A stretch of 64,000 bases of DNA from a virus, in the IMG/VR virus record IMGVR_UViG_3300020371_000004, positions 1 through 64,000 of that record. One strand, 5' to 3'. The position numbers were made by a program, and so were the translations under genes. Below, piece by piece: positions 30,635-46,183 of the stretch (the stretch's first letter is position 1; each line of letters opens with the position of its first letter). The notes under the pieces are model-generated. The model saw only the letters and a program-made list of their open reading frames with translations. It did not search any database and was not told where the DNA came from.

Positions 30635-30642
30635 TATAAATA
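30635..30642 (+). promoter_or_regulatory. late promoter (full T4 consensus)
   Basis: TATAAATA; AGGAGA ribosome-binding site upstream of ATG 30688. Confidence 0.75.
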
Positions 30643-30687: not shown

Positions 30688-32070
30688 ATGGCACTTTTAG
30701 TACCAGATTGTGGCGAACTTCAATCCCTAAGGTATCTCGTTAACAGTGATCACAGAATTCCTAGGAATCTGATTCTAAAACTATATTCTAGTTCAACGAC
30801 ACCTGCTGAAGGGGATGTTCCTTCACAGACAACTTATTATGAACCATATGATGCATCAGGTTCACTTGGTTATGGTGTTTCACCATCTAACGGATATCCT
30901 GGTGTAATTAACAATAGATTTGACCAGGACTATTCCAGACAGTACGGTATTCTCCTTAATGGTAATCTTTGGAATGTAAGAACGATTACCACTGCAATCG
31001 CAACTCCTACTGGTTCTGGTACAGTTAACGAGTATCTAATTACTGTTGATAGCACAACCAACATTGCTGTTGGTCACTATGTAAGTGGTGGTGGTGTTGG
31101 TTCCAACGCAACTGTTGCTGCAATCGATGGTAACACAATCGTCCTAACTGTTCCTAACACATCTACGTTTACCAACCAACCACTTGAGTTTGGTGTTGGT
31201 ACAACTACTGCATCCTATCCTGAGCAAACTTTCACCTTCACCTCTGCTGCTAATAACCAGTATGGTTACTACCTAGTAAGAGCAAATAACCTTCCTAAGG
31301 AAATCCACGGTGTTGAGAATGCTACTTCTGTTGCTGAAGCAGTTGCAATTGGTAAGACTCTAACAACTGGTACTATCGGTCAGTCATACTTGACTCTCTT
31401 CGATAAGAAGTACGAGCCAACCATCACTGGAACTGGTGGTGATTACGAACTGACAGTTAACGTTAACACTGGTATCACAACTAACCAAAGAGTTGCAGGT
31501 CTTGGTATTGCAGATGGAACCAGAGTTACTGGTGTAACTGGAACTACAATTTACCTGTCTAAGGCACTGACTGGTTCTGCTTCTGGAATCGGTACATTCT
31601 TCGAGAACGTTGGTGAAGACATCTGTGTAGGTATGGCAGTTACCCACAGCAACGTACAGGGTGAAGTTAATGCAATTACTCCTGGTACTAAGGTTACTGG
31701 TTTCGATGAAATCGAGAGAATTGTATATCTTGATAAGGAACTAGTTAACAACGTACAGACTGCTACTGGTGACCAAGTTAACTTCGGTACTTCTCACGTC
31801 ACTGCAACTGACCACGGTCTACAACCAGGTGATGTAATCTACTTGGCAGCAGGTGCAGGTAATACAACTACCCAATCCTCAACTTACACTGTACACCGTT
31901 CACTCGACGCAAATACTTTCTCAACCGTACCTGCTCTTGCAGTTGGTGCAGGTGGAAGTTCCACAATCTACAGCAGCATCATGTTTGCTGAAAGATTTAC
32001 AAACGGTCCATACAACATTCAGAACAACGGTGACCAAATTAAGGTTACCCTTAACATCAGCCTTGACTGA
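30688..32070 (+). CDS. abundant virion structural protein (putative)
   Basis: Own late promoter, RBS and terminator; strong AAC/TTC/ATC/TAC codon preference; LILKLY..YGYYLV..FAERFTNGPYNIQNNGDQIKVTLNISLD core. Confidence 0.7.
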   Translation: MALLVPDCGELQSLRYLVNSDHRIPRNLILKLYSSSTTPAEGDVPSQTTYYEPYDASGSLGYGVSPSNGYPGVINNRFDQDYSRQYGILLNGNLWNVRTITTAIATPTGSGTVNEYLITVDSTTNIAVGHYVSGGGVGSNATVAAIDGNTIVLTVPNTSTFTNQPLEFGVGTTTASYPEQTFTFTSAANNQYGYYLVRANNLPKEIHGVENATSVAEAVAIGKTLTTGTIGQSYLTLFDKKYEPTITGTGGDYELTVNVNTGITTNQRVAGLGIADGTRVTGVTGTTIYLSKALTGSASGIGTFFENVGEDICVGMAVTHSNVQGEVNAITPGTKVTGFDEIERIVYLDKELVNNVQTATGDQVNFGTSHVTATDHGLQPGDVIYLAAGAGNTTTQSSTYTVHRSLDANTFSTVPALAVGAGGSSTIYSSIMFAERFTNGPYNIQNNGDQIKVTLNISLD

Positions 32071-32100: not shown

Positions 32101-32132
32101 GGAGGGGTTGCGGAATCGTGGCCCCTCCTTTT
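32101..32132 (+). terminator. intrinsic terminator
   Basis: GGAGGGGTTGCG-GAAT-CGTGGCCCCTCC followed by TTTT. Confidence 0.8.
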
Positions 32133-32159: not shown

Positions 32160-34358
32160 ATGCCAGCACTTAATGTAGGAATAAATTCAACCTTTGAGCA
32201 GCAAAGACTTGTCATCAATACACTTGCAGTTGATGTCAATTCTATCCTTACTGGAACTGCTGGAATAGCAACGTACTCACCATTGTCGGGAATTGCATCT
32301 AATGCAGTTCGTCTAGATGGTCAGTTACCAAGTTATTACCTGGATTATGGGAACCATACTGGAACACCAACCAGTTTATCTCAGTTTACTAATGATGTAG
32401 GTTTCATTACTTCATTTAACATTAACAGTGGAGTCACTGTTAGTGGTGTCATGACTGCTACAACATTTGATGGTAATCTGACAGGTAATGTAACTGGAAC
32501 ACTTTTTGGTAATGTTAGTGGTGGTAATGTAAGTGGTACTTTATCTGGTGATGGAAGCAATATTTCTAACCTAAATGCTTCTAGGATAACATCAGGCACC
32601 TTGAGTGCTTCACATATTCCTGTACTCAACCAGAATACTTCTGGAACTGCTGCAGGACTAAGTGGTAACCCAACTATCGGAATTACTTCTTTAACGGCAT
32701 CAGGGAGGATTGTAGGTGCTGCTGTAGATAACGTAATTCCATTCTTATATTCCGATTTAAGTGACTTGCCAAGTGCAAGTAGTTATCATGGTGCATTTGC
32801 TCACGTTCATAACACAGGTTCAGCATACTTTGCACATGGTGGAAACTGGGAAAAACTCGTAAATTATAATACTGATTCAGATAATATATCCATTGGTGGT
32901 ACATTATCTGCTGTTGGTGATGTCGTAGTTACTGGTATTGTAACTGCTACTAGATTCTTTGGAGATGGTTCTCAACTAACAGGTGTTGGTGGTGGATCTG
33001 GTGGACTACAGATTTATGATGAATATAACCTAATTGGTACAGCATCTTCACTTAACTTTGTTGGTGGAAATATATCAGCAAACTTTGTTAATGGTTATGT
33101 TACAGTTAACGTAACTGATACTGATACAAATTATTGGGAAAGAAATAGTTCTGGAATTAGTACAACATCATATCTTGGTATTCAGACCTCAAATCCAAAC
33201 TATTCATTGGAAGTTGGTCCATATGGAAGTACTGGTATTGATTTTTATGTTCATGGAAGAAGTTGGTTTAATAATCAAATCAATACCCCAATTGTTGGTT
33301 TAGGAACACTTTCAATTAACTCGGAAACTAGGCTTTCTTCTTTACCTAGAATTGTAACATCAGAACTTGCAGTTGGTAACATCTCTACGACTAGAGTTCT
33401 TAACGTTACAGGTGATGCACATATTGGGGCAGGATTAACAGTCCATGGTGAACTTGATATTAATGATGATTTAAGAGTTAAAGATAACAAATATATTACT
33501 GTTGGTGATGGATTTGACCTATCAATTTATCATGATACGATTAATAGTCATATTGCCGACCAGGGAACTGGTAGTCTGATTATTCGTGGTAGTGATGTTG
33601 TAATTAAAAATGCAGCAGACAGCAAAGTATCTGCAGAATTTACAGGTGGTGCAGAAGCAAAACTTTTCTACGATAATTCAGAGAAGTTTTCTACAGTTAG
33701 CACTGGTACAACAACTTATGGTACGCACTTTGCAACAAGATTTGCGGGTGATGGAAGTCTACTAACAGGTGTTATTTCTTCATCAAGTGTTGGTCTCGCA
33801 ATTCAAGGTGCAGGAACTCCAGTTGGTACTGCTACTACATTAAACTTTGTTGGTGCTGGTGTAAATCCAACAGTTACTGGTGGTATTGCAACCATTGATA
33901 TTTCTGCTGCAGTTGGTAGTGCAGGTAGATTTAAGGATGGTACTTCAGGTATACATACAACAGCACCTGCTGTAGGTTTAGGTACAACTAATCCAAAAAC
34001 ACAACTCCAGGTTGGTGATGTTTATGGTATAGAGGTCTATAGTGGTATTACATCAGTCACTGCTGGTGTTGCAACTGATGGTGTAGGTGGATGGACTATT
34101 GCCGATACAGATTTCCTAAGTGTAGATTACAAACTATACTTTAATTACAATGGCACAGTTCAAACCCAGAGAGCATCAGTGATGCATGATGGAACCACAG
34201 CATATGTTCAACCATATGCAATGATGATGACAGGAAATACTGCAGTAATGTCAATTGATGCAGTAATTTCAAATGGACAAGTAATTCCAAGATGGACACC
34301 AGGAACTGGAATAACTGGTATTGTTACATATAGAGTAGTAAGGGAGTCAATGCTATGA
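32160..34358 (+). CDS. tail fibre-like protein A
   Basis: STFEQQRLVIN N-terminus; G/T/V-rich shaft with FxGDGSxLTG repeats; C-terminal domain shared with ORF 39510. Confidence 0.75.
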   Translation: MPALNVGINSTFEQQRLVINTLAVDVNSILTGTAGIATYSPLSGIASNAVRLDGQLPSYYLDYGNHTGTPTSLSQFTNDVGFITSFNINSGVTVSGVMTATTFDGNLTGNVTGTLFGNVSGGNVSGTLSGDGSNISNLNASRITSGTLSASHIPVLNQNTSGTAAGLSGNPTIGITSLTASGRIVGAAVDNVIPFLYSDLSDLPSASSYHGAFAHVHNTGSAYFAHGGNWEKLVNYNTDSDNISIGGTLSAVGDVVVTGIVTATRFFGDGSQLTGVGGGSGGLQIYDEYNLIGTASSLNFVGGNISANFVNGYVTVNVTDTDTNYWERNSSGISTTSYLGIQTSNPNYSLEVGPYGSTGIDFYVHGRSWFNNQINTPIVGLGTLSINSETRLSSLPRIVTSELAVGNISTTRVLNVTGDAHIGAGLTVHGELDINDDLRVKDNKYITVGDGFDLSIYHDTINSHIADQGTGSLIIRGSDVVIKNAADSKVSAEFTGGAEAKLFYDNSEKFSTVSTGTTTYGTHFATRFAGDGSLLTGVISSSSVGLAIQGAGTPVGTATTLNFVGAGVNPTVTGGIATIDISAAVGSAGRFKDGTSGIHTTAPAVGLGTTNPKTQLQVGDVYGIEVYSGITSVTAGVATDGVGGWTIADTDFLSVDYKLYFNYNGTVQTQRASVMHDGTTAYVQPYAMMMTGNTAVMSIDAVISNGQVIPRWTPGTGITGIVTYRVVRESML

Positions 34359-36949
34359 TTATAGACTGGACTGACGAAGAGAATATTGAAGCACTAAATC
34401 AAGCATATCAAGATGAGATTGCTGAGTTAGAGAAGGTTCCTGATGATCCAACAGCAAGGGTTCAGTATGTTATTGGGTGCGAAAATGCTTCGGATTGGCA
34501 ATATGTCCATCAAGTATTAATCACTGATGGTACTAGTGAAAATATTCTTCCAACAAATTCAATAAATTGTGTAGATGATTGTAAGCATAGTCCCGTAAAA
34601 GGAAGATATATTTTAACTGCTGAGCAAGCAGAAACAATAAAAGAGCACCCAAAAGTTAAATATATTCACCCAGACTTTAGTAGATACCAGGGAACATATA
34701 AACCACCTACACACGAAATTATATGTGCTGCTAAGTACAATAGGTATAACAGTAATAGAAGGCAGTATAGGGATATGCAAGTATCCATGCCATATACACC
34801 TACAGATGCAGAAGCAGGACGTAGTGGATATCAGCTATCTAGGTGTATGCAAGTTGATGACCCTTGGTGGGGTGAAACTGGAACATATCAAACAAAGAAT
34901 GATGTTGTTTTAAATCAAAAAATTCAGCAATATGGTGATGCTTCTGATGTTGATGTAATTGTTACAGATACTGAAGCATGGTATGGACATCCAGAGTTTA
35001 TTAATACCGCAATAAGAAGTACAGCAACTAATGATGGATATAATTCCACTGGTTCTGGTCCTTCAAACTATAGAGGTGGTAATGTTTTACCTGGTAATGG
35101 TTATTGTGATATTTTAGACATTTACTTAGACGCACCATATTACATCGATCCAGATTTCTTTGATAATGACCCAGGAAATAGATTGATAACAAGATTTGAT
35201 GGAACTATGGTTCCTGTTGAATCTGTAGCAAGAAGTTGGTGGTCTAGTAATTCACTATCTTCGAGATCATCAAAGTTTGTAAGTCCAAGTAATGGTGGTA
35301 CTGCCACTGGACTTAACGATTTTGGTGTTATTAATGGTGGTAGTCAATGGACCTCCTATACCAGAGCAAGAAATAATGGTTCAAATAGTGCATATTGCAC
35401 AGGAAGTGGAACTCATGCTACTCAATGTATGGGTGTTTGTTATGGAAGGGGACAAGGATGGGCATATAATGCAAATAAGTGGCATATAAACAATATTGGT
35501 AGCAGTGCTGTTAGTATTGAAGGATCTGCAGATTTAATTAAAGTATTCCACAACTGCAAACCTAATAATCCGTCTTTAGGGACAAAAGACCCAACATTAA
35601 CAAGTAATAGCTGGGGATATCGTTCCACTTCTCACTCTACCGTTTATAGTGCTGGTTCTAATTATGTGTTTTTCAGGCATGGTCAAGGAACTGGTAATGT
35701 AGCTGCAGCATCTGCGTCATATAGTAGCTCATCTACTATGCCAAATTGTCTTAGAACTGTTGGATATTATGGTGATGGTGGTAGAATGAAGGGAGAAATG
35801 CTTCCTAATTCTATGGTGACTGCATGGACTGAACTGGTTGATGCTGGAGTTATCACTGTAGTTGCTGCAGGAAATTCAAACCAAAAGCAAGTTCAACCAA
35901 ATCATCCAGATTTTGATAATTTCTGGACACATAGTGGAACTGGTGGTGGAGGTGGTTCAAATACTAATTTACTTGCGAATACTCATTATGAGTTTAGTGT
36001 TGAATGTTATAACACAATGAACAGACCTGGATTCCCACAGCAGGTTGGTAGACATACAGATTCTAATGGTAACGTTGTACTGAACAAGGTTATTAATATG
36101 GGTGCATTAGATTATCAGTATCAATCAACTGGGCATGAGAGAAAAGTAAATTATAGTGATATGGGTAATGGTATTGATTGTTATGCACCAGCAGATGATG
36201 CTTTAGGTGCAACTAGAGGAAGTTCTGGTGAAGGAATCCACCCAGAGACATATCCTGAACTTTCTGTTACAGCAGTCGATAATGATTTTGGTGGTACAAG
36301 TTCTGCATGTCCAGTAGCAGCAGGATTGATTGCAACTAAACTGCAGTATAACAGGGCATGGTCTTGGAGTGATGTAAAAACTTGGATTCTAAACTTAACC
36401 CAACAAAATACAAGTAAGTTTTATGTTGGAAATGAAGCAACAACAGTTACTTCTAATGATTGGCAAGATACCGTCCATCTTAACGGAGGTAGTCCTATCG
36501 TCATATATGACAAGGAAACAGGACAAGAGCCTTCTGGTGGTTTTGGAAGTATTCAATCTAATACTTATTCAATCACAGAAGGAGCTACAATTAATGTAAC
36601 AATACATGCAGTTGGTGTTTCTGCTGGAACATATTATTATTCTATCGAAAGTATTCCAGGTGAAGATTACACAGTTCCAGGAGATGGATTTAGTCCTACA
36701 GGAACAACAGGCAATATTTCTTATAATGGTACTGGAAATATTACCTTTAACATAGTTACAACCACTGATTTAATTACAACTACAGACGCTAGAATAAGAA
36801 TTAGAATTCGGGAAAATGCTGTTAACGGACCAATCGTTGCAACTACTGACGATATTATAGTTACTGGAACATTAGACCCAGTACCATTCCAGTTTGCGTC
36901 TGGTGGAGCTCAGTGGGGTGGTGGTGTCATAGTGACTTTTCAACCGTAA
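34355..36949 (+). CDS. subtilisin-like serine protease 1 (peptidase S8) with I9-like prodomain and C-terminal Calx-beta-like domain
   Basis: Asp VDVIVTDT, His GTHATQCMG, oxyanion Asn VVAAGNS, Ser FGGTSSACPVAAG in the S8 order; no signal peptide. Confidence 0.85.
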   Translation: MIIDWTDEENIEALNQAYQDEIAELEKVPDDPTARVQYVIGCENASDWQYVHQVLITDGTSENILPTNSINCVDDCKHSPVKGRYILTAEQAETIKEHPKVKYIHPDFSRYQGTYKPPTHEIICAAKYNRYNSNRRQYRDMQVSMPYTPTDAEAGRSGYQLSRCMQVDDPWWGETGTYQTKNDVVLNQKIQQYGDASDVDVIVTDTEAWYGHPEFINTAIRSTATNDGYNSTGSGPSNYRGGNVLPGNGYCDILDIYLDAPYYIDPDFFDNDPGNRLITRFDGTMVPVESVARSWWSSNSLSSRSSKFVSPSNGGTATGLNDFGVINGGSQWTSYTRARNNGSNSAYCTGSGTHATQCMGVCYGRGQGWAYNANKWHINNIGSSAVSIEGSADLIKVFHNCKPNNPSLGTKDPTLTSNSWGYRSTSHSTVYSAGSNYVFFRHGQGTGNVAAASASYSSSSTMPNCLRTVGYYGDGGRMKGEMLPNSMVTAWTELVDAGVITVVAAGNSNQKQVQPNHPDFDNFWTHSGTGGGGGSNTNLLANTHYEFSVECYNTMNRPGFPQQVGRHTDSNGNVVLNKVINMGALDYQYQSTGHERKVNYSDMGNGIDCYAPADDALGATRGSSGEGIHPETYPELSVTAVDNDFGGTSSACPVAAGLIATKLQYNRAWSWSDVKTWILNLTQQNTSKFYVGNEATTVTSNDWQDTVHLNGGSPIVIYDKETGQEPSGGFGSIQSNTYSITEGATINVTIHAVGVSAGTYYYSIESIPGEDYTVPGDGFSPTGTTGNISYNGTGNITFNIVTTTDLITTTDARIRIRIRENAVNGPIVATTDDIIVTGTLDPVPFQFASGGAQWGGGVIVTFQP

Positions 36950-36950
36950 C

Positions 36951-36956
36951 TAAATA
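36951..36956 (+). promoter_or_regulatory. late promoter
   Basis: TAAATA between proteases 1 and 2. Confidence 0.6.
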
Positions 36957-36984
36957 GTAAAAAGTTCTAGTGTTTACTTGAAAT

Positions 36985-39480
36985 ATGTTTGACGAAGAAA
37001 TTCTAGAAACACCTGGGTTTCAGGAAGAAAAAGACAAACTTCCTAAAGAACCAGAAGGTGATGTAGATAAGGAATATGTTGTCGTTTGCCATACCAATGA
37101 AGGATGGCAAACGATTCATAGTCTCATCATGGAAGAAAATACTTCCGAGGACTATGTTCCTAATACATCAAAGAAATGTTGCAATGATAAGAAACATAGT
37201 CCTACTAGAGGAATCTATATGATGACAGACTCTGAGGCAGAGGAACTCAGGTCCCATGAATTAGTTGAGACTGTAAATATTAATCGTGCTGCATATCCAG
37301 GAACATATAGAATTGATCCTGCTTTAATGAAAGATGGAATTGGACCACAATATAGGTATGGTTCAAATGTTAAACACCAAAAAGACCCTACTTTTCCATC
37401 TACTCCTACATTAGCAGATTTAAATCGTGCTGGATATGCTATCTTAAGACATTCCTCGTATCAAGATCCTTGGTATGGAAGTTCAGCATCTACAGTAATT
37501 AATGATAGAGCTCAGCATTATGGTGCTGGTGAAGATACTGATATCATTACTGTTGACGAAGATATGTGGTTTGGACATATCGAATTTCAAAATAATACAG
37601 GAACTGGTCCAACTAACTACAAGGGAGGAAATGTTCTTCCAGGAAATGGAACTTGCGATTTGCTATGTTTGGTGAATGATTCACCATATTATATTGACCC
37701 AGATTTCTTTGATGCTGATCCAGCAAATAGATTAGAAACTAGATGGGATGGAACAATAGTCCCAACGGAAGCTGCTGCTAATGGTTGGTGGCGTAATAAC
37801 TCATTGTCATATAGGTCATCAAAGTTTGTAAGTCCGTCTAATGGTGGTACTGCTACTGGTAATAATGATTTCGGCACTATACTTGTTTCATCTAATTATA
37901 CTAGAGCAAGACAAAATGGATCCAATACTGCATATCAAACCAGTGGTGGAAGTCATTCAACACCATGTGCTTCCTTAGCATATGGGAGAAGTTATGGATG
38001 GGCATATAATGCAAATAAGTGGCATATTGCCCTTATGGGTTCTTATGCTGTAGATGAAGAAGATATTTTTGATATGATAAAAATATTTCATCAGTGTAAA
38101 CCAATAAATCCCACATACGGAAATAGAGACCATACATTATGTACAAATAGTTATGGTTATAGGTCTTATGCTCCACCATCTAGTGGATATTACTATTATG
38201 AGACCCCCGATGATGGTACTGGAGGAGTTTACTATTCGTCAAAACCTAAATTTCTTAGTAATTTTTATCAAAGTTATATTAGATCTGAGATGCTCCCCAA
38301 TTCATTACTAACTGCTGGTAATGAAATGATTGATGCTGGTGTTATTTTTGTGTGTTCTGCAGGAAATACTAGACAAAAACTAGTGAAGGCAACCCACCCA
38401 TCTTGGTATAACTATGTTTCTACTAGTAATAACCACACTATGGCAGATACACAATTCAGTTCTGGTGGATTCAATTGGGTGAAATCTGTAAATAGACAAG
38501 GATTTCCTGGTCAAATTGGTAAAGTTGGTGTTGGAACAAATACTGTTTATAGAACTTTTCCAATTGGATGCCTAAGTGGTGGCCACCGTTCAGATGGAAG
38601 AGAGCAAAGAGCAGTTTACAGCAATATGGGTAATCTAATTGTTGGATTTGCTGCTGGTGATAGGCAAGCAGCAGCATGTGATGACAACGCTGGTTCTCGT
38701 AAGAATCGTTATGATGCTTATTATACTCTTAATGGAGTTCAATCTGTAGAGTCTGAAGATAGAGAATTTAATGGTACAAGTGCTGCATCTCCAGTAGCTT
38801 GCGGATTCTTAGCAACTAAAATGCAGCATAATAGGACTTGGGACTGGCAAGATTTGATGAACTGGATTGAAAGTTTGACTCCAGTCAATAGTTCAGAATT
38901 TTATTATGGTACTGAATCAACTACTGCTACAGATAATAACTGGGATGATGATTACAGTATAGAAGGTCATCCTGGATATGTATTTTATGATGCAACAACT
39001 GGTGGAAATGAATCTTCTTATAGGTGGGATGCTGCTTCTGGTAATGTTGCTACACAAAATCCTAAAGAAGTAACAGAAGGTGGTACTGCAACTGTCACAC
39101 TCTCCACTAATGCACCTGACGGAACTTACTATTACGTTGTTGAGAAAGATGACCACCAATCTGATATTCAAGCAAGTGATTTTGATACAGGAGGAGGTTT
39201 CCTGGGAATGTATGGTGCATTCTCTGTTTCTGGTGGTGCAGCAACACTTAATTTCAAAATTGCAGCTGATGCAGTTGCAGTAAATGAAACAGAATCATTT
39301 AGAGTTAGAGTTAGGAGTGGTAGCACTACAGGACCTGTTGTTGCAACTTCACATGATTTTATAATTTTAGATTCTTCCTCTGGAGGTGGTGGTGGTGGTG
39401 GAGGAACACCAGCAACACCTTTCGTTTTTGCATCTGGTGACGGTCTGACATTTACTGGTGTCAGCATAAGTTTCTCTTGA
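36985..39480 (+). CDS. subtilisin-like serine protease 2 (peptidase S8)
   Basis: TDIITVDE, GSHSTPCAS, VCSAGNT, FNGTSAASPVACG; C-terminal VTEGGTATVTLST..ESFRVRVRSGSTTGPVVATS Calx-beta-like domain. Confidence 0.85.
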   Translation: MFDEEILETPGFQEEKDKLPKEPEGDVDKEYVVVCHTNEGWQTIHSLIMEENTSEDYVPNTSKKCCNDKKHSPTRGIYMMTDSEAEELRSHELVETVNINRAAYPGTYRIDPALMKDGIGPQYRYGSNVKHQKDPTFPSTPTLADLNRAGYAILRHSSYQDPWYGSSASTVINDRAQHYGAGEDTDIITVDEDMWFGHIEFQNNTGTGPTNYKGGNVLPGNGTCDLLCLVNDSPYYIDPDFFDADPANRLETRWDGTIVPTEAAANGWWRNNSLSYRSSKFVSPSNGGTATGNNDFGTILVSSNYTRARQNGSNTAYQTSGGSHSTPCASLAYGRSYGWAYNANKWHIALMGSYAVDEEDIFDMIKIFHQCKPINPTYGNRDHTLCTNSYGYRSYAPPSSGYYYYETPDDGTGGVYYSSKPKFLSNFYQSYIRSEMLPNSLLTAGNEMIDAGVIFVCSAGNTRQKLVKATHPSWYNYVSTSNNHTMADTQFSSGGFNWVKSVNRQGFPGQIGKVGVGTNTVYRTFPIGCLSGGHRSDGREQRAVYSNMGNLIVGFAAGDRQAAACDDNAGSRKNRYDAYYTLNGVQSVESEDREFNGTSAASPVACGFLATKMQHNRTWDWQDLMNWIESLTPVNSSEFYYGTESTTATDNNWDDDYSIEGHPGYVFYDATTGGNESSYRWDAASGNVATQNPKEVTEGGTATVTLSTNAPDGTYYYVVEKDDHQSDIQASDFDTGGGFLGMYGAFSVSGGAATLNFKIAADAVAVNETESFRVRVRSGSTTGPVVATSHDFIILDSSSGGGGGGGGTPATPFVFASGDGLTFTGVSISFS

Positions 39481-39486
39481 TAAATA
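39481..39486 (+). promoter_or_regulatory. late promoter
   Basis: (A)TAAATA immediately after the stop codon. Confidence 0.6.
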
Positions 39487-39509
39487 ACTAAAAGTAGTAT
39501 TCCCATCAG

Positions 39510-42431
39510 ATGGCAAATAAAGGATTTGGTGCAGAGAAAATTAATCTAATCGGTGGTGGGACTCCTAATATTAGTAGTCCTAACGACTTGAATTTAACTG
39601 CAGATAATGTTGCAATCAGCACCAATGCATCTATCGGTGGTAATTTGACTGTTTCTGGTGGACTTACATTACCGAGTGGTATTGTAACTGCTACTGGACA
39701 CTATGGTCCAATTTACATTGAAGAAAGTTCAGATGATGACGTATTTTATGATATACCTTTTCTAAATTCTACTGGTTCTGCAAATAATTATAGGCAGTTA
39801 CAAATTGACGCAGGTCAATTGCAATTTAATGCATCAGATAATTCACTAAGATTATATGGTGCAATGTATGCCAGTAGAGGATTTTCAATTGGTATTCAGT
39901 CTGCTGGAACAACCATTGTCAATCAAGGAAGTCAATATGTTGAAGGCATAAACTTTGCTGGTGCAGGAAATACTATTACATATAATAGCTCTTCAAGGTA
40001 TGTAACAGTAGAAATTGCAGGTAGTAGTGGTGGGGCAGGTGTTGGTACAAATACTAATATAAACACAACTGGTATTATTACTGCTGCTGCATTTAACAGT
40101 CCCTACTACAACTCTGGAGTGCCCTACATTGGTGTGGGTGCAGGGGCAACTCAAATTGAATTCCAAGCACCAAATGTTGCCATAACAACTGACATGACTG
40201 TTGGTGGTGCTATTAATGCTGCTGGTGCAGTTTTTAGTGGTATTGCTACAGGAACTTTTGTTGGTGATGGTTCTGGTCTAATTGGACTTGCTGGTATTGG
40301 TTCTGGTATCCAGGTTATGGATAATGGAACCCTTGTAGGTATGGCTCAGACCATTGATTTTGGTACTGATCTAACTGTATCAAATATTTCTGCTGGTATT
40401 GTAACTGTTAGCAATGCAATCAATCTTGTAGGAATTGATACTGTTGGTGTATCCATATTCAATCATATTGATGCCTCAGGTATTGTAACTGCAACATCTT
40501 TTGATACTATTGGTGGTGTTGGTCAATCACCAGTCATTAATTCTGGTATATACACCACTCTTACACTAAATTCACCTACTGTTGCAATCAGTACTGATAT
40601 GACGGTTGGTGGAAACCTAACCGTAACAGGAACAATTAATGGAAGTAATCTAGGAGGAACTCTAGCACCAGATGGAATTAACATGCTGGGGCAGAAGTAT
40701 ATTACTTTCTATAAAGATAATAGTACTGCATTCTCAAGTCACAACTCTGAAATGTATGGTACTTCCTATGGAACTACCATTTGGAGAGAATATGCTACTG
40801 CTGCTGGTGACGGTATTAGAATTGGAACTAAAGAATTAACCATAGAGCCCCAAAATCTATATGGGCATATGGCAAAGTTCACTCAAAATGGACCAGTGTA
40901 CTTAAGTTGGGGTGGTCATATAGGAGAGGGAACTGAACATAAACATAAATTTGCAACTAGTGGAATTGGTGTTTCTGTTCTATACACGAACGGTACATAT
41001 GGTCATATGGATGTTCGTGACATCAATGCAACTGGTGTCGTTACTGCAACATCTTTTACTGGTGACGGTTCTGGACTGACTGGAGTTACTGCAACTGGTT
41101 CTGGTATTGTTGTTAAAAATAGTGGAGCATTAGTAGGTACAGCAGCAACAGTTGATTTCGGAACTAATCTTTCTGTATCCGCAGTTTCTGCTGGTGTTGT
41201 AACTGTGACTGCTAGTGGTTCTGGTGGTGGTGGAAGTACAGCAGGAATTGATACTGCTGGAGTTTCACACTTCAATCACATTAATGCAGTTGGTGTTATT
41301 ACAGCAAATACATTTGCAAGTTATGCTGGTGGTGCATCTTCTATTACTAGTCCTGGTGCCTTAACTATTGCTGCACCTCATGTTGCTATTACAACCTCAG
41401 TAAGTATCGGTGGTACAGCAAGTATTGGTGATACTCTCTCAATGTTTGATGATGATTTAAAAATCTTCAAAAATAACAGTAGTGGAAACGTTGTAATTCA
41501 AGAACTTAGTGGCGGAAGTCTTAATATTAATGCTAATGACTTACAACTAAAAGATTATCTTGGTCAAGAGAATAAAGCAAGATTTATAACAAATGGTGCA
41601 GTAGAACTGTATTATGATAACTCTCTTAAATTTGAAACTACTGGATTTGGTGTAACCATTTATGGTAGCACCATGATATCTAATTCTCTTGATGTTGGTG
41701 ATACCAATGTCTCTGGTGATTTAAATGTAACTGGTGATGTTACTTCTGCTCGATTCATTGGTGATGGTTCTGGTCTGACAGGTGTTGTTGGTTCTGGTTC
41801 TGGTGTAATCGTTCAGGATGGTGGATCGATTGTTGGTACTGCAGGTACAATTAACTTTGGTACAAACCTAAGTGTTTCTGCAATTTCTGCTGGTGTTGTA
41901 ACTGTTACTGCTAGTGGTTCTGGTGGTGGTGGAACCACACAGAACCTCTTTGAATCCATTGCAGTTTCTGGTCAGAGTAATGTAACTGCTGATAGTGCAA
42001 CTGATGTACTGACATTCGTTGCTGGTAGTAACATGACTATCACAACAAATGCAGCAACTGATACTATCACCTTTAACTCCACTGGAGGTGGAGGAGGTGG
42101 TGGAGGAGGCACAAGTGGGGTATATTCATGGGATGCTGCTTCTTTAACTCTAGAGAATGTTGACACAGTAAACCTTTCTACTGATAGTTTCAGGGGTGCT
42201 GAGTATCATATTCATATTGAGCACTCTCAAGGAATACAATCTCAGAAAGTTCTAATCATGCAGGATGGAACTAATGCATATGCTAATGAATTTGCAATTA
42301 TGCATGATAACAATTTGCTTGTTTCTATTGGTGCATCAGTTAGTGGAGGCAATTTCTACTTAAATGCTACACCAGAATCTGGTGTAACTGGTGTTACAAC
42401 TCTCAGATATCTTAAGACTATCATTAGTTGA
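39510..42431 (+). CDS. tail fibre-like protein B with internal repeats
   Basis: Three F.GDGSGL.G..G.GSG......G..VG.A.T.(D/N)FGT.L.VS..SAG.VTV repeats; four VAI(S/T)T...(I/V)GG repeats; Gly linkers. Confidence 0.75.
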   Translation: MANKGFGAEKINLIGGGTPNISSPNDLNLTADNVAISTNASIGGNLTVSGGLTLPSGIVTATGHYGPIYIEESSDDDVFYDIPFLNSTGSANNYRQLQIDAGQLQFNASDNSLRLYGAMYASRGFSIGIQSAGTTIVNQGSQYVEGINFAGAGNTITYNSSSRYVTVEIAGSSGGAGVGTNTNINTTGIITAAAFNSPYYNSGVPYIGVGAGATQIEFQAPNVAITTDMTVGGAINAAGAVFSGIATGTFVGDGSGLIGLAGIGSGIQVMDNGTLVGMAQTIDFGTDLTVSNISAGIVTVSNAINLVGIDTVGVSIFNHIDASGIVTATSFDTIGGVGQSPVINSGIYTTLTLNSPTVAISTDMTVGGNLTVTGTINGSNLGGTLAPDGINMLGQKYITFYKDNSTAFSSHNSEMYGTSYGTTIWREYATAAGDGIRIGTKELTIEPQNLYGHMAKFTQNGPVYLSWGGHIGEGTEHKHKFATSGIGVSVLYTNGTYGHMDVRDINATGVVTATSFTGDGSGLTGVTATGSGIVVKNSGALVGTAATVDFGTNLSVSAVSAGVVTVTASGSGGGGSTAGIDTAGVSHFNHINAVGVITANTFASYAGGASSITSPGALTIAAPHVAITTSVSIGGTASIGDTLSMFDDDLKIFKNNSSGNVVIQELSGGSLNINANDLQLKDYLGQENKARFITNGAVELYYDNSLKFETTGFGVTIYGSTMISNSLDVGDTNVSGDLNVTGDVTSARFIGDGSGLTGVVGSGSGVIVQDGGSIVGTAGTINFGTNLSVSAISAGVVTVTASGSGGGGTTQNLFESIAVSGQSNVTADSATDVLTFVAGSNMTITTNAATDTITFNSTGGGGGGGGGTSGVYSWDAASLTLENVDTVNLSTDSFRGAEYHIHIEHSQGIQSQKVLIMQDGTNAYANEFAIMHDNNLLVSIGASVSGGNFYLNATPESGVTGVTTLRYLKTIIS

Positions 42432-42446
42432 ATAGGAGAATAGTAA

Positions 42447-45437
42447 ATGAACGTACCATCTTCAACAGAAAAGAACGTATACACTGTCGGTTGTGAGACA
42501 GAAGAAGATTGGATTTATATTCGTGATGCTTTACTTGACGAAAATTGGTTAGATGATGAAGAAATACCAACTGAAGCATGTGAGTGTGTAAGTGATAAAA
42601 AAGTAGGACACACTAGAGGCATCTTTATGTTGACAGATGCCGAAGCAGAGCAACTTAAACAGCATCCTAAGGTTGAGTATGCTCATCATGATAGTTCTTA
42701 TTACCAAGATTATTATAGACCACCTCTTGAGGAAAGATACTTTGGTTTAGATTATGGTCAAAAGTATCAGTGGAGATGGGAAAACAGAGTATTAATTGAA
42801 AGAGCAAATCAGTCTCAATCAAATTTCTATCCAGATCATAAAACACCACGTCAAATCAACAAAGCTGGTTGGGAATTAGCTCGTCCAGCAGCAAAAAGAG
42901 ACCTTTGGCATTATCTTAAAGAGGCTAATGGTTTAAGTGGTGATGTAACTGCATATTCTATCAGTGCTAGATTGGCAAGAACAACAACTGGTGAAGATGT
43001 TGATATGATTGCCTGTGATACAGGAACTTGGTGTAGTCATCCAGAATTTATCAATAATCTTCCTGGTGTTGAGTATCCAAGAAATTATAAAGGTGGTAAT
43101 GCTTTAGACCCTAATGGTGGTTCTGCAGTTCTAGACTTATTTTTACATGGTCCATACTATATTGACCCAGAATGGTTTGATGCTGACCCAGCAGATAGAT
43201 TAACAGTAAGATGGGATGGGACTGTAATTCCGATAAGATACTGGGCTCAGAAATGGTGGTCTGATAGTGACAGTCGTTCTCCTCAATTTAACAATGTTGA
43301 TGAAGTTAGCATTGGTTATAGTTACTATGAACAATGGTCTATCGGTGATTTATATGGTAATGGTGGTGCAAGTTCTCATGGTACTTCAGTTGCCTCTCAG
43401 ATGTATGGAAGAACTCATGGATGGGCATATAATGCCAATAAATGGGCAATAAGAACAGATATAACTTCATTTGATGATATGTTTGATGCGATAACTATAT
43501 TTCATCAAAATAAACCAGTAAACCCAAAGCACGGAAATAGAAACCCAACAATATGTAATCATAGTTGGGGTTATGTTAATCCCGAAATGGGTGGTGGATA
43601 TCAGTATAGAAGTGGACACCACTGGTTTAGACCAAGTAGTGCAACTGTTACTACTACTGCTACTGAATGGTCTATTGCTCCCTCACCAACATCTTGGTAC
43701 ACTGCAGTTCAGCCAAACCATTCACAAAATGCAAAAGAACAGTGGTTTAGGTATCTTGGTTATTATGGATACGGTTCTACATTCCCATGTGAACTACTTT
43801 CCCATGGTGATTTAACTGCTTCCACAAATTGTTTTAATTCTGGAGTTATTCATGTTGTTGCTCCAGGAAATTCAAACCAGAAAATGGTATTTTCTGACCA
43901 TGAAGATTATAACAATCATTTTGCTCCAAATCGAGATGATGCAACTAGATCATTTAATAGTAACACACTTACACTCAGTGGTAAGACTTATTATAGGTCA
44001 ACGAACAGAATAGGTTATCCTGGTCAATCTGGTAGGTATTATGATGAAGGAAAGTATAAGTACAAAGCACTAATTGTTGGTGCTCTTTCTGATATGTGGG
44101 GGACTGATAATGGAGTCTATAAAGAGTTTAAAGTAGACTATAGCAACATGGGTGAAGTTGTTGATTGCTACTGTGCTGCACATGACACACAGGCAGCAAC
44201 CAATAAGGAGTTTGGTGATAATAGTAGTTGGAGAAGAGCAGATAATGAAGCTTTCTATGAATTATATAATGTTGGTGCTGCATCTACTTATACCTCAAGT
44301 TCGTATATAAGTGGTTTCAAGGCATATACAGATACAGCAACCAATAGAGGTGGTGACCCAAATGCAAATAAGTATTGGGGTCTCAGTAGTCCAAATGATT
44401 GGCCTGATGTTTTAGGTCAAGGTCGTCAAAACCATGGAAGTAGTAGAGTTGTAGTTGGTCCCAACTCTTGCGGTAGAGGATTGGGAAGACCCGAAACAAT
44501 TTTATTTAAATCAAATACAGGTCATCGTTTTGCAACTGGTGGTAGTCTTAATTACCCAACAGTAACTTACACTGGAATTGCCGCAACTTTCCGTGGTCGT
44601 GTTGGTATTCAAACTACAGAACCAGAACCAGCAACAAACTATTCAACTCTTGCTGATTGGAGATGTTATAGATGCGATCTACCATTTACTTTTGATTATT
44701 GTGGTGTTACTACCAATAGAGTTGGAATTTCTCCATGGGGAGTTCTTGAAATTGGTGGTGAAGGTTCACATAGTAAGACTAGTACCGAGGTTTCTTGGAT
44801 ACACCATGGTGGAGTTCCAAAGTGGGGACAGATTGCCCTTAATCATGGGCATGTAAGTCCTTATGTAGGTATTCGTACAGAGGTTTTAGGAGTAGCTCCA
44901 AATAGACAATTCTGGGTTAGATATGAGTCTAAAGATGGCAGTGGACATACCAGTGGTGATATGGACACTGTATGGGAGGCAGTTTTTACTGAAAATTCTG
45001 GTGTAGTAGACTTCCATGTAGAAACTAATACTCACATAGGGGAGACTACCCAGACTGTAGATAACGACTACTTCCATGATGATTGGTTTAGTGGAACAAG
45101 TTCTGCTGCACCTATTGCTTGCGGTATCGTTGGAACTAAATTGGAAGTTAATAGAACATGGGATTATGCTGATGTGAAGAACTGGGTTACTACAAAAGTT
45201 GGTATTTCAAGTAGTGATGAGTTTTATTATGGTGATGAAGCACCAAGTGGAACTAATGCACGCAATGATATTTCTTGGGGAACGGTAACCAGTCTTCATG
45301 GAGGTAGTCCAATTATATTATGGAATGCACCAACTGACAATGACCCACCTATTGAAAATCAATTACAGATTGATATTGGTAGTAATTTAACCATTGAAGG
45401 TGGAACCAACAACTTAAATATTAAATACGAACAATAA
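42447..45437 (+). CDS. subtilisin-like serine protease 3 (peptidase S8) with a ~270-aa insertion before the catalytic Ser
   Basis: VDMIACDTG, SSHGTSVAS, VVAPGNS, FSGTSSAAPIACG; AGGAGA RBS. Confidence 0.85.
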   Translation: MNVPSSTEKNVYTVGCETEEDWIYIRDALLDENWLDDEEIPTEACECVSDKKVGHTRGIFMLTDAEAEQLKQHPKVEYAHHDSSYYQDYYRPPLEERYFGLDYGQKYQWRWENRVLIERANQSQSNFYPDHKTPRQINKAGWELARPAAKRDLWHYLKEANGLSGDVTAYSISARLARTTTGEDVDMIACDTGTWCSHPEFINNLPGVEYPRNYKGGNALDPNGGSAVLDLFLHGPYYIDPEWFDADPADRLTVRWDGTVIPIRYWAQKWWSDSDSRSPQFNNVDEVSIGYSYYEQWSIGDLYGNGGASSHGTSVASQMYGRTHGWAYNANKWAIRTDITSFDDMFDAITIFHQNKPVNPKHGNRNPTICNHSWGYVNPEMGGGYQYRSGHHWFRPSSATVTTTATEWSIAPSPTSWYTAVQPNHSQNAKEQWFRYLGYYGYGSTFPCELLSHGDLTASTNCFNSGVIHVVAPGNSNQKMVFSDHEDYNNHFAPNRDDATRSFNSNTLTLSGKTYYRSTNRIGYPGQSGRYYDEGKYKYKALIVGALSDMWGTDNGVYKEFKVDYSNMGEVVDCYCAAHDTQAATNKEFGDNSSWRRADNEAFYELYNVGAASTYTSSSYISGFKAYTDTATNRGGDPNANKYWGLSSPNDWPDVLGQGRQNHGSSRVVVGPNSCGRGLGRPETILFKSNTGHRFATGGSLNYPTVTYTGIAATFRGRVGIQTTEPEPATNYSTLADWRCYRCDLPFTFDYCGVTTNRVGISPWGVLEIGGEGSHSKTSTEVSWIHHGGVPKWGQIALNHGHVSPYVGIRTEVLGVAPNRQFWVRYESKDGSGHTSGDMDTVWEAVFTENSGVVDFHVETNTHIGETTQTVDNDYFHDDWFSGTSSAAPIACGIVGTKLEVNRTWDYADVKNWVTTKVGISSSDEFYYGDEAPSGTNARNDISWGTVTSLHGGSPIILWNAPTDNDPPIENQLQIDIGSNLTIEGGTNNLNIKYEQ

Positions 45438-45440
45438 ATA
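45435..45440 (+). promoter_or_regulatory. late promoter
   Basis: (A)TAAATA overlapping the stop codon. Confidence 0.6.
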
Positions 45441-45457: not shown

Positions 45458-46183
45458 ATGGCTAATAAAAGTTTTTCCGTTAGAGAATTTGAGATTGTTG
45501 GAAATTCTGGCAATTCTAAATTAACATCTACCGAGTATATTGAACTTAATACACCTAGAGTTGCTATTAGCACTGACTTAACTGTTGGTGGAACAGTGAG
45601 GAGTGATATAAGTCTTCCAGGACATAGTTTAACTGCTCTTCAGGCAAACATAACAGGGGTTACAACCATGTCCTCTGTCAGTGTTGTTGGTGTATGTACG
45701 GCAGCATCTTTCTCTGGTTCTGGAGTAGGTTTAACTGCGTTATCTGCACCGCAACTTACTGGTTCTTTACCTGCACTAGATGCATCATCACTTACCAATA
45801 CTGTTGGAACTATCACTGCTGGAGCAGGAGTAACAATAAATCAAGGGACGGGAACAGTACATGTATCCCAAGGAATTACTTATGTTGTTGGTGGTAACAC
45901 TAGTGGATATACAATGGTTGGTCCAGGTGTTTTGCAGACATCTTTAAATCCAACCATTTATTTACATAGAGGATTTGTATATATTTTTAACAATACCACT
46001 GGTTCAGGTCACCCATTCCGTATTCAATATACTGGTACAACAACTGGATACGGTAGCACATGGGTAACTGGAAATACAGCAGGGACTCAGATGTTTGTTG
46101 TTCCTCATGATGCTCCAAGCACTCTTGAATATCAATGTACTATCCACCCTGGAATGAAAGGGACATTTGTTATACCTTCTTGA
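45458..46183 (+). CDS. short fibre-like protein with a C-terminal cupredoxin-like domain
   Basis: N-terminus homologous to ORF 39510 (MANK.F, VAISTDLTVGG); C-terminal GHPFRI..YQCTIHPGMKGTF. Confidence 0.7.
   Translation: MANKSFSVREFEIVGNSGNSKLTSTEYIELNTPRVAISTDLTVGGTVRSDISLPGHSLTALQANITGVTTMSSVSVVGVCTAASFSGSGVGLTALSAPQLTGSLPALDASSLTNTVGTITAGAGVTINQGTGTVHVSQGITYVVGGNTSGYTMVGPGVLQTSLNPTIYLHRGFVYIFNNTTGSGHPFRIQYTGTTTGYGSTWVTGNTAGTQMFVVPHDAPSTLEYQCTIHPGMKGTFVIPS

What the first reader, a model, noticed from the sequence alone, without database searches (positions are those of the whole stretch)
32160..45437. Three intact subtilisin-like proteases interleaved with tail-fibre genes: a candidate protease-armed virion system
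Seen: the order is fibre A - S8 - S8 - fibre B - S8 within a late-promoter structural region. All three proteases keep Asp/His/Asn/Ser in S8 order, have an I9-like prodomain (..HPKV.Y.H.D) and lack signal peptides. Protease 1 is coupled to fibre A by an ATGA overlap. Established: T4 head maturation uses gp21, not S8, so these are not the standard prohead protease; marine Synechococcus can carry proteinaceous surface layers (SwmA/SwmB). Inference: fibre-mounted, self-activating proteases that cut host surface proteins (a protein analogue of depolymerase tailspikes) or mature the giant fibres.
Basis: partly seen in the sequence, partly recalled or inferred. Interest (0 to 1): 0.85.

Follow-up and report, generated by a model that had tools for sequence, protein, structure and literature searches.

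The report
Subtilisin proteases paired with cyanophage tail fibres
A marine T4-like cyanophage fragment carries three intact subtilisin-type protease genes, each sitting next to a tail-fibre gene, and a relative of these proteases has been found in purified virus particles, so the virus probably carries proteases on its tail apparatus.

Summary
Five co-directional genes run fibre A, S8-1, S8-2, fibre B, S8-3, followed by a gp9-like baseplate connector. All three proteases pass Pfam Peptidase_S8 and keep Asp/His/Asn/Ser. The S8-1 model superposes on aqualysin/proteinase K (Z 29.6).

They belong to phrog_9158 (T4-GC 292). This uncharacterised family is widespread: at least 1217 metagenomic proteins, 44 phage records and 267 IMG/VR stretches.

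New here:
- Both fibres end in a conserved ~110-residue domain (FCD) that folds like tailspike C-terminal domains. 21 of 22 FCD-bearing ORFs found lie directly upstream of an S8 gene, including in the distant phages S-SCSM1 and P-SSM2.
- The S-SCSM1 family member and its FCD fibre carry the GenBank note '(virion protein)', which matches that phage's mass-spectrometry virion proteome.
- Relatives fuse the S8 to Ig-like, Calx-beta, cadherin, laminin-G or fibre modules.
- Five reference genomes have one catalytic copy each; this contig has three anciently diverged ones.

Best reading: virion-borne, fibre-associated pro-subtilases. Their substrate (host surface protein, the fibre itself, or only self-cleavage) is untested. 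The I9 prodomain is not confirmed by sequence, the host is unknown, and the late-promoter claim is only partly borne out.

The same stretch was noted by other first readers of this scan.

The parts
32101..32128 (+). Terminator-like hairpin (12 pairs, 8 G-C, T-run) between the upstream structural gene and fibre A
   Evidence: sequence read
32160..34358 (+). Fibre A, 732 aa, tail-fibre-like
   Evidence: phrog_8745 E 7.5e-17 and phrog_6942 E 1.1e-10; no Pfam family passes
34008..34355 (+). FCD of fibre A (aa 617-731): conserved fibre C-terminal beta-sandwich domain
   Evidence: HMM hit at 149.4 bits. AF2 model has pLDDT 87.3. Best fold matches are C-terminal domains of phage tailspikes or baseplate fibres: 6e1r Z 12.2, 9f4a Z 10.9
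34355..36949 (+). S8-1, 864 aa. Layout: N-terminal propeptide-like domain (aa 36-106), subtilase core with large insertions (aa 128-721; D205, H354, N507, S649), beta-sandwich (aa 738-837), low-confidence C-terminal beta-hairpin tail (aa 850-863). Its start overlaps the fibre A stop (ATGA)
36950..36956 (+). CTAAATA, late-promoter-like core 35 nt before S8-2
   Evidence: That TATAAATA is the T4 late-promoter consensus is recalled knowledge
36985..39480 (+). S8-2, 831 aa. Same layout as S8-1 and 44% identical to it. A poly-Gly linker precedes the C-terminal beta tail
   Evidence: Pfam S8 34.9 bits; phrog_9158 E 7.9e-71; alignment
39480..39486 (+). ATAAATA, late-promoter-like core 30 nt before fibre B; overlaps the S8-2 stop codon
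39510..42431 (+). Fibre B, 973 aa, tail-fibre-like. Its N-terminal ~65 aa resemble the N-termini of gp9-like proteins in other phages
   Evidence: phrog_6942 E 5.9e-16; BLAST of fibre B residues 1-66 to gp9-like ORFs in L033, L001, L024 and L067
42096..42425 (+). FCD of fibre B (aa 863-972), behind a poly-Gly linker
   Evidence: HMM hit at 149.4 bits
42447..45437 (+). S8-3, 996 aa. Same propeptide-like domain and subtilase core, canonical D-T-G. It has no Calx-like beta-sandwich and a different C-terminal tail
   Evidence: Pfam S8 37.8 bits; phrog_9158 E 1.2e-61; alignment
44214..45062 (+). Insertion of roughly 280 aa in S8-3, between the oxyanion Asn and the catalytic Ser. It is absent from S8-1 and S8-2
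   Evidence: Alignment. Atlas structural neighbours include NIDO-containing clusters at TM 0.42-0.47, from a low-confidence model; this is a lead only
45434..45440 (+). ATAAATA, late-promoter-like core 24 nt before the gp9-like gene
45458..46183 (+). gp9-like 'baseplate wedge tail fibre connector', 241 aa. It is the conserved downstream neighbour of the S8 genes
   Evidence: phrog_677 E 1.5e-35; 28 of 52 unique downstream neighbours of S8 genes in other contigs hit phrog_677

Best explanation
The three genes encode pro-subtilases that are components of the virion's fibre and baseplate-periphery apparatus.

Proposed sequence of events:
1. They are made late in infection, without export signals, in one transcription unit with the fibres.
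2. The N-terminal propeptide-like domain folds the catalytic domain and keeps it latent inside the cell (inferred by analogy with pro-subtilases).
3. Each enzyme is assembled together with a partner fibre whose distal end is the conserved FCD domain. The attachment point is probably the enzyme's C-terminal part (beta-sandwich and beta-tail), because the N-terminus would be removed on maturation and fused relatives carry their fibre or Ig modules C-terminally (inferred).
4. Outside the cell the active enzymes, helped by adhesion-type modules, cut protein on or around the host surface during adsorption (inferred, untested).

What is shown: an intact S8 fold and catalytic residues under strong conservation; a conserved fibre(FCD)-S8-gp9-like gene module; and a family member, with its FCD fibre, annotated as detected in purified virions.

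What is inferred: virion presence of these three proteins, fibre mounting, latency and activation, and the substrate.
For: Fold and catalytic residues:
- S8 profile passes in all three. S8-1 fold match Z 29.6 over 271 of 276 residues.
- Catalytic residues kept in 191-192 of 192 unique homologues and in 5 distant phage members.

Gene organisation:
- Tight coupling to the fibres: an ATGA overlap and gaps of 15-35 nt.
- Of 60 unique upstream neighbours of S8 genes in other contigs, 31 hit phrog_9729 and 13 hit phrog_6942 (both tail fibre), and 12 hit phrog_677. Of 52 unique downstream neighbours, 28 hit phrog_677, the gp9-like connector.
- 19 of 19 FCD hits in the fetched loci and the window sit at the extreme C-terminus of the ORF directly upstream of an S8 gene. 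The same holds for S-SCSM1_227 and PSSM2_296.
- The FCD folds like tailspike C-terminal domains.

Virion evidence:
- S-SCSM1_228 carries S8 at 92.9 bits, two Laminin_G_3 domains and phrog_9158 at 390 bits. It and its FCD fibre _227 are flagged as virion proteins within a block of seven such genes.
- The flag also marks ORF213 and ORF214, which the paper (PMC9602691, section 13 read) names as MS-detected. It is absent from other structural genes in the same record.

Domain fusions in relatives: He_PIG Ig repeats, Calx-beta, cadherin, and Ig plus fibre-like C-terminus in S-TIM54.
Against: - No direct data exist for this uncultured contig.
- The S-SCSM1 evidence comes through a GenBank note. The proteome tables are in supplements I could not open, and the authors themselves warn that some detected proteins may be carry-over.
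- The S-SCSM2R proteome paper (PMC12801897, passages read) lists 23 virion proteins. The word 'peptidase' does not occur in its main text, so its S8 (SSCSM2R_203) may not have been detected.
- Conserved catalytic residues are also expected if only self-cleavage matters.
- The I9 assignment fails Pfam's cut-off and a PDB profile search.
- One FCD fibre (S-SCSM1_229) is followed by a lectin-type gene, not an S8.
- The C-terminal beta-tail also occurs in S8 genes whose upstream fibre lacks an FCD. A strict FCD-to-tail pairing is therefore not supported.
Confidence: 0.5

Rival explanations
1. Fibre maturation protease. The S8 enzymes cleave or trim their partner fibres, or the neighbouring giant structural proteins, during assembly. 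They may or may not stay on the particle. Their conserved position after the fibre gene then parallels assembly factors encoded downstream of fibre genes in other phages.
For: A fixed position directly after a fibre gene with translational coupling. One-to-one fibre-S8 pairs in several contigs: L012, L067, L007. FCD domains sit behind flexible Gly-rich linkers that could be cleavage sites.
Against: An assembly protease has no obvious need for extracellular-type adhesion modules (Calx-beta, cadherin, He_PIG, Laminin_G_3). The FCD fold matches the retained C-terminal domains of tailspikes, and no Peptidase_S74-type chaperone is found in the fibres. The S-SCSM1 member is flagged as a virion protein, although a retained maturation enzyme would also be detected.
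Confidence: 0.2
2. PCSK9-like binding module. Catalysis serves only for self-cleavage of the propeptide, which stays bound and blocks the active site. The subtilase body and its C-terminal modules then act as an adhesin or receptor-binding head on the fibre.
For: PCSK9 chains are among the strong fold matches (Z about 26) and among Foldseek's top rows. PCSK9 keeping its triad while acting as a binder is recalled knowledge. The variable C-terminal adhesion modules fit a binding role.
Against: The best fold matches are active proteinase-K-type enzymes (Z 29.6). The oxyanion Asn and the substrate-cleft motifs (S-W-G-Y, A-G-N, G-T-S) are nearly invariant across 192 homologues. This is compatible with trans activity but does not prove it.
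Confidence: 0.15
3. Not virion-borne. An intracellular or released protease used for host takeover, nutrient scavenging or lysis, which merely sits among structural genes.
For: No signal peptide, so the protein is first cytoplasmic. The S-SCSM2R paper does not mention a peptidase among its virion proteins.
Against: Conserved synteny inside the fibre/baseplate module across distant phages. Fusions to fibre and Ig modules. The virion-protein flag in S-SCSM1.
Confidence: 0.08

Closest known systems
S-SCSM1 SSCSM1_228 (QFG06492.1) and P-SSM2 PSSM2_297 / S-SSM7 SSSM7_232: phrog_9158, 'T4-GC 292, contains PF00082'
   Same: Same protein family. Same propeptide-like N-domain and catalytic motifs. Same position after an FCD-ending fibre and near a gp9-like gene.
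   Different: Each of five reference genomes has one catalytic copy, against three anciently diverged copies here. C-terminal modules differ: Laminin_G_3 in S-SCSM1, none in P-SSM2, a Calx-like sandwich in S8-1 and S8-2, an internal insertion in S8-3.
Secreted pro-subtilases of the proteinase K / aqualysin type, and fervidolysin and Tk-SP with propeptides
   Same: Complete subtilase core with D/H/N/S, Z 29.6. Pro-forms top the Foldseek list. There is an N-terminal alpha/beta domain where a propeptide would be.
   Different: No signal peptide. About 320 extra residues sit in conserved insertions within the core. Phage-encoded within a fibre module. The propeptide is not confirmed by sequence profiles.
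Tailspike or tail-fibre depolymerases (virion enzymes that degrade host surface polymers)
   Same: An enzyme gene in the fibre module of the virion. The partner fibre's FCD has the fold of tailspike C-terminal domains. A family member is flagged as a virion protein.
   Different: The enzyme is a separate globular serine protease, not a trimeric beta-helix glycanase or lyase. The substrate would be protein. Activity and location are untested.
PCSK9
   Same: Subtilase fold with a retained triad; good fold match at Z about 26.
   Different: PCSK9 acts as a binder with its propeptide locked in place (recalled). Whether the phage enzymes shed their N-domain is unknown.
Peptidase_S74 intramolecular chaperone domains of endosialidase tailspikes and T5-type fibres
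   Same: A serine peptidase activity linked to fibre biogenesis.
   Different: S74 is a C-terminal self-cleaving domain of the fibre itself. Neither fibre here has a Pfam S74 match. The protease here is a separate S8 protein.

Membership tests
Peptidase S8 (subtilases, Pfam PF00082) | Profile score above Pfam's gathering threshold | tested here: met
   28.3, 34.9 and 37.8 bits against 21.8; 52 of 55 family members match at E 0.01 or better
Peptidase S8 (subtilases, Pfam PF00082) | Catalytic Asp, His, Ser in that order, plus the oxyanion Asn | tested here: met
   D205, H354, N507 and S649 are invariant in the three paralogues. In 192 homologues, Asp is kept in 191 and His, Asn and Ser in all 192. 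All four are kept in 5 distant phage members
Peptidase S8 (subtilases, Pfam PF00082) | Subtilisin alpha/beta fold | tested here: met
   S8-1 model: Z 29.6, rmsd 2.4, 271 of 276 residues of 4dzt. S8-2 and S8-3 were not modelled
Peptidase S8 (subtilases, Pfam PF00082) | Proteolytic activity | not testable with these tools
   needs an enzyme assay
Inhibitor_I9 propeptide (PF05922) | Profile score above the threshold | tested here: not met
   17.4 bits against 21.2 in S8-1 only; 1 of 55 members at E 0.01 or better; the N-domain profile finds no propeptide in PDB sequences
Inhibitor_I9 propeptide (PF05922) | beta-alpha-beta-beta-alpha-beta domain directly N-terminal to the catalytic domain | tested here: inconclusive
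   Predicted elements E36-42, H45-56, E71-74, E82-87, H89-96, E101-106 fit this topology (the reference topology is recalled). Pro-forms rank first in Foldseek. The domain was not modelled or searched alone
Inhibitor_I9 propeptide (PF05922) | Autocatalytic removal | not testable with these tools
   needs N-terminal mapping of the mature protein
phrog_9158 / T4-GC 292 (cyanophage S8 family) | Profile match over most of the model | tested here: met
   E 5.2e-89, 7.9e-71 and 1.2e-61
Virion-associated depolymerase tail fibres and spikes | Protein present in the virion | not testable with these tools
   Only a homologue's GenBank flag, tied to a published MS proteome
Virion-associated depolymerase tail fibres and spikes | Trimeric beta-helix enzyme body with an N-terminal particle-binding domain | tested here: not met
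   The S8-1 model is a globular subtilase with a propeptide-like N-domain
T4 gp21 prohead protease (Peptidase_S77) | S77 profile match, role in head maturation | tested here: not met
   No S77 hit for the three proteins in the Pfam scan. 3 of 3 reference phages with this S8 family have a separate S77 gene. None was found in this 39%-complete fragment, which is uninformative
Peptidase_S74 fibre chaperone | S74 domain at the fibre C-terminus | tested here: not met
   No Pfam match in fibre A or B at E 0.01 or better. The FCD fold matches tailspike C-terminal beta-sandwiches instead

The most novel reading that the evidence does not exclude
Protease-tipped tail fibres. Each S8 docks through its C-terminal tail on the FCD at the distal end of its partner fibre. 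It stays latent through its propeptide until the particle meets seawater calcium. It then digests proteinaceous host envelope layers (S-layer or giant surface adhesins) so that the baseplate can reach the outer membrane. This would be a protein-cutting counterpart of polysaccharide depolymerase spikes. Three ancient paralogues with different targeting modules would widen the range of surfaces, and hence hosts, that one phage can penetrate.
Probability: 0.25. Interest if true: 0.85.

Novelty: new variant of a known kind. Interest (0 to 1): 0.62.

Why it matters
Marine picocyanobacteria escape T4-like cyanophages largely through changes in cell-surface proteins, and how these phages get through such layers is poorly understood (recalled background).

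A widespread two-gene module of an FCD-tipped fibre plus a subtilase, with a member found in virions, gives a concrete and testable candidate for a protein-degrading adsorption step. Cultured carriers exist for the tests: S-SSM7, P-SSM2, S-SCSM1 and S-SCSM2R.

The family has been annotated only as 'hypothetical, contains PF00082' or 'peptidase'. Of my eight literature searches, five bore on this question, and none found a functional study of it.

If the enzymes are active on particles, they would also matter for host-range prediction, and as naturally cell-free, salt-adapted proteases.

Tried and rejected
- phmmer of S8-1 against PDB sequences found nothing at E 0.01 or better. The fold search was needed instead.
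- Megablast of the whole region against phage records gave one 167-base match, so there is no close cultured relative.
- Exact TATAAATA as a marker of late promoters is no more frequent than chance. I used the shorter TAAATA core instead.
- I9 by sequence was rejected as unproven.
- Strict plug-and-socket pairing of the S8 beta-tail with the FCD is not supported. The tail motif is present in nearly all unfused S8 homologues, including those whose upstream fibre has no FCD.
- A recent tandem duplication as the origin of the three copies was rejected. Tree distances are 1.5-2.0 and their common ancestor spans 189-190 of 192 leaves under a midpoint root. The sample was collected by similarity to S8-1, so S8-3-like sequences are under-sampled.
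- Searching for S8-3 relatives in viral contigs found only the near-identical contig already held.
- The gp21 search in the window's own record found nothing. This is uninformative for a 39%-complete fragment.
- The S-TIM5 paper (PMC3277518) is not held. The supplements of PMC9602691, PMC12801897 and PMC3037559, which hold the proteome tables, were closed. They may bear directly on whether the S8 proteins and their N-domains were detected.
- Papers seen: PMC9602691 (passages and section 13), PMC12801897 (passages), PMC3037559 (passages), PMC10665884 (passages), PMC7824862 (passages), PMC3482391 (passages), bioRxiv 10.1101/2025.01.23.634377 (one passage, irrelevant).
Full report
**What is there.** The region holds five co-directional ORFs:
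- fibre A, 32160-34358, 732 aa
- S8-1, 34355-36949, 864 aa
- S8-2, 36985-39480, 831 aa
- fibre B, 39510-42431, 973 aa
- S8-3, 42447-45437, 996 aa

A 241-aa gene follows at 45458-46183 and matches phrog_677, 'baseplate wedge tail fibre protein connector'. The start of S8-1 overlaps the stop of fibre A (ATGA). The remaining gaps are 35, 29, 15 and 20 nt. A strong terminator-like hairpin lies just before fibre A (32101-32128). The exact T4 late-promoter octamer occurs only 4 times in the window, no more than chance, and not before fibre A. The shorter TAAATA core, however, sits 24-35 nt before S8-2, fibre B and the gp9-like gene, against about 0.04 expected per 60 nt. The window belongs to an 83-kb uncultured IMG/VR record estimated at 39% complete, so the host is not known. 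Relatives are T4-like cyanophages of Synechococcus and Prochlorococcus.

**The proteases are real and intact.**
- All three pass Pfam Peptidase_S8: 28.3, 34.9 and 37.8 bits against a cut-off of 21.8.
- D205, H354, N507 and S649 lie in subtilase-type motifs and are invariant among the three. Among 192 unique homologues (from 209 sequences), Asp is kept in 191 (the other is a gap) and His, Asn and Ser in all 192. Five distant phage members also keep them.
- An AlphaFold2 model of S8-1 (pLDDT 83.5, pTM 0.73) aligns 271 of the 276 residues of aqualysin I at Z 29.6, rmsd 2.4. Proteinase K relatives score within one Z unit. The core spans residues 128-721 and therefore carries about 320 residues of insertions. 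Some of these are very conserved, for example the acidic PYYIDPD...RWDGT stretch.
- No N-terminus has a hydrophobic signal-like stretch.

**The N-terminal domain.** The model predicts a beta-alpha-beta-beta-alpha-beta unit (residues 36-106), followed by a low-confidence linker (121-125), before the core. Propeptide-bearing subtilases (fervidolysin, pro-Tk-SP, cucumisin with propeptide, pro-subtilisin E, PCSK9) head the Foldseek list. Sequence evidence is weak:
- Pfam Inhibitor_I9 reaches 17.4 bits, below its 21.2 cut-off, in S8-1 only.
- Only 1 of 55 family members scanned matches it.
- A profile of 51 N-domains finds no propeptide among PDB sequences.

I therefore call it propeptide-like, not I9.

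**The family.** All three belong to phrog_9158, 'unknown function'. This is the same family as P-SSM2 PSSM2_297 and S-SSM7 SSSM7_232, which GenBank labels 'T4-GC 292; contains PF00082 domain'. It is widespread:
- at least 1217 proteins at E 1e-5 or better among the 8000 candidates scored
- 267 IMG/VR stretches
- 20 phage records with S8-1 as query, and 44 with the S-TIM54 S8 part as query

Each of five reference genomes has one catalytic copy. This contig has three. The three are anciently diverged: 35-44% identity, tree distances of 1.5-2.0, and a common ancestor spanning 189-190 of 192 leaves (the sample is biased towards S8-1 relatives).

**Conserved neighbourhood.** In 80 IMG/VR loci I found 83 S8 ORFs. 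Of these, 76 had a same-strand upstream neighbour and 69 a downstream one.
- Of the 60 unique upstream neighbours, 31 match phrog_9729 and 13 match phrog_6942 (both tail fibre), and 12 match phrog_677.
- Of the 52 unique downstream neighbours, 28 match phrog_677 and 11 match phrog_9158.
- One representative contig of the shorter (~675-aa) S8 class reads fibre-like, S8, gp9-like. It lies in a T4-like context with a tail-sheath stabiliser, endonuclease V and a carbamoyltransferase.
- The S-SSM7, S-SCSM2R and P-SSM2 records show the same order.

**A conserved fibre tip precedes the proteases.** Fibres A and B share a C-terminal domain of about 110 residues (FCD).
- An HMM built from it found 19 copies (17 unique) among the ORFs of the loci and the window. 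Every one lies at the extreme C-terminus of the ORF immediately upstream of an S8 gene.
- A six-frame scan found three more. These are S-SCSM1_227 (directly upstream of the S8 gene _228), PSSM2_296 (a collagen-like 254-aa fibre directly upstream of the S8 gene _297), and S-SCSM1_229, which is followed by a concanavalin-A-like lectin gene instead.
- So 21 of 22 FCD-bearing ORFs precede an S8 gene, across phages whose S8 proteins share only about 26% identity. The sample was gathered through S8 similarity, which favours this result. Even so, no FCD was found elsewhere in the flanks, and the whole window holds only the two.
- A model of the fibre A FCD (pLDDT 87.3) is a beta-sandwich. Its six best matches among 48,161 PDB representatives are C-terminal parts of phage tailspike, tail-fibre or baseplate proteins: 6e1r at Z 12.2 with 110 residues aligned and rmsd 4.4, 9f4a at Z 10.9, and four others at Z 7.8-8.3.
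- 28 further FCD fibres exist in metagenomes, two of them with a T4_gp9_10 domain.

**Virion evidence.**
- The best viral structural match of the S8-1 model is S-SCSM1 A0A6M2ZHU7 (E 2.5e-34). This is SSCSM1_228, which has S8 at 92.9 bits, two Laminin_G_3 domains and phrog_9158 at 390 bits.
- Its GenBank note reads 'baseplate wedge subunit (virion protein)'. It sits in a run of seven genes (225-231) all marked as virion proteins, including the FCD fibre _227.
- The S-SCSM1 paper reports 45 proteins detected by mass spectrometry in CsCl-purified particles. It names ORF213 and ORF214 among them (PMC9602691, section 13). Both carry the same note in the record, whereas the head completion protein, the baseplate hub subunits and a tube protein do not.
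I could not open the supplementary tables.
- Against this, the S-SCSM2R paper reports 23 virion proteins and never uses the word 'peptidase' in its main text, so its S8 may have gone undetected.

**Other pointers to an extracellular, particle-borne role.**
- Relatives fuse the S8 to three to six He_PIG Ig-like domains (L070, L081, L083).
- In S-TIM54 the S8 is fused to an esterase, Ig domains and a tail-fibre-like C-terminus in a 2140-aa 'virion structural protein'.
- Other relatives carry Calx-beta, cadherin or Ig_3 modules.
- S8-1 and S8-2 carry a beta-sandwich (residues 738-837) whose local viral matches include a P-SSM2 virion structural protein.
- Nearly all unfused members end in a similar Gly-punctuated beta-hairpin tail that is poorly packed in the monomer model. 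It is a candidate docking element. It also occurs where the upstream fibre has no FCD, so it cannot be FCD-specific.
- S8-3 lacks the sandwich. Instead it has an insertion of about 280 residues between the oxyanion Asn and the Ser. Atlas structural neighbours of that stretch include NIDO-containing clusters, but only at TM 0.42-0.47 from a poor model.

**What it is not.**
- It is not the head maturation protease. 3 of 3 reference phages with this family have a separate Peptidase_S77 gene.
- It is not an S74 fibre chaperone.
- It is not a beta-helix depolymerase.

**Reading.** The best-supported explanation is a set of virion-borne pro-subtilases assembled with FCD-tipped fibres next to the gp9-like connector (confidence about 0.5). 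The substrate is open. Conservation of the triad does not separate these.

**Novelty.** The gene family is already in the databases, and its S8 domain was noted in 2010-era annotation. What I did not find in print, in the five searches that bore on it, is:
- the conserved FCD-fibre/S8 module
- its tie to a virion proteome
- the threefold expansion seen here
- any functional study

I rate it a new variant of a known kind, namely enzyme-armed tail fibres with a protease in place of a glycanase.

Noticed in passing
window 45458-46183; L001 14200-14706: The gp9-like gene after S8-3 has a close relative in S-SCSM2R (53% identity over 98 aa) that GenBank annotates as PetE (plastocyanin). Pfam finds nothing in the window protein at E 0.01 or better. 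Another first-reader note proposes a cupredoxin ligand set here.
   Followed up: partly
L003 9998-16417 (S-TIM54 UYE97265): A 2140-aa protein combines the propeptide-like domain, an alpha/beta-hydrolase esterase segment (BD-FAE / COesterase hits), the S8 core, Ig domains and a tail-fibre-like C-terminus. That is two different hydrolases on one virion-type protein.
   Followed up: partly
L085 12185-16651 (S-SCSM1_229 and _230): An FCD-ending fibre is followed by a concanavalin-A-like lectin/glucanase protein instead of an S8. Both are flagged as virion proteins. This suggests the FCD may partner with more than one kind of downstream head protein.
   Followed up: no
W01 183373-186279 and W04 170932-173604: The phrog_9158 profile reads through the stop codons of the S8 gene into the downstream gp9-like gene (profile positions about 585-696). 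Some members of that PHROG are therefore probably S8-gp9-like fusions.
   Followed up: no
window 39510-39710 (fibre B aa 1-66): The N-terminus of fibre B resembles the N-termini of gp9-like proteins in other phages (47-55% identity over 48-67 aa). This hints at a shared baseplate-attachment module.
   Followed up: partly
window 21821-29353 and 46395-53516: Two giant ORFs (2510 and 2373 aa) flank the fibre-protease block. Neither was examined here.
   Followed up: no
window 30635-30642: One of only four exact TATAAATA octamers in the window lies 46 nt before the 460-aa structural gene at 30688-32070 (phrog_10467).
   Followed up: no
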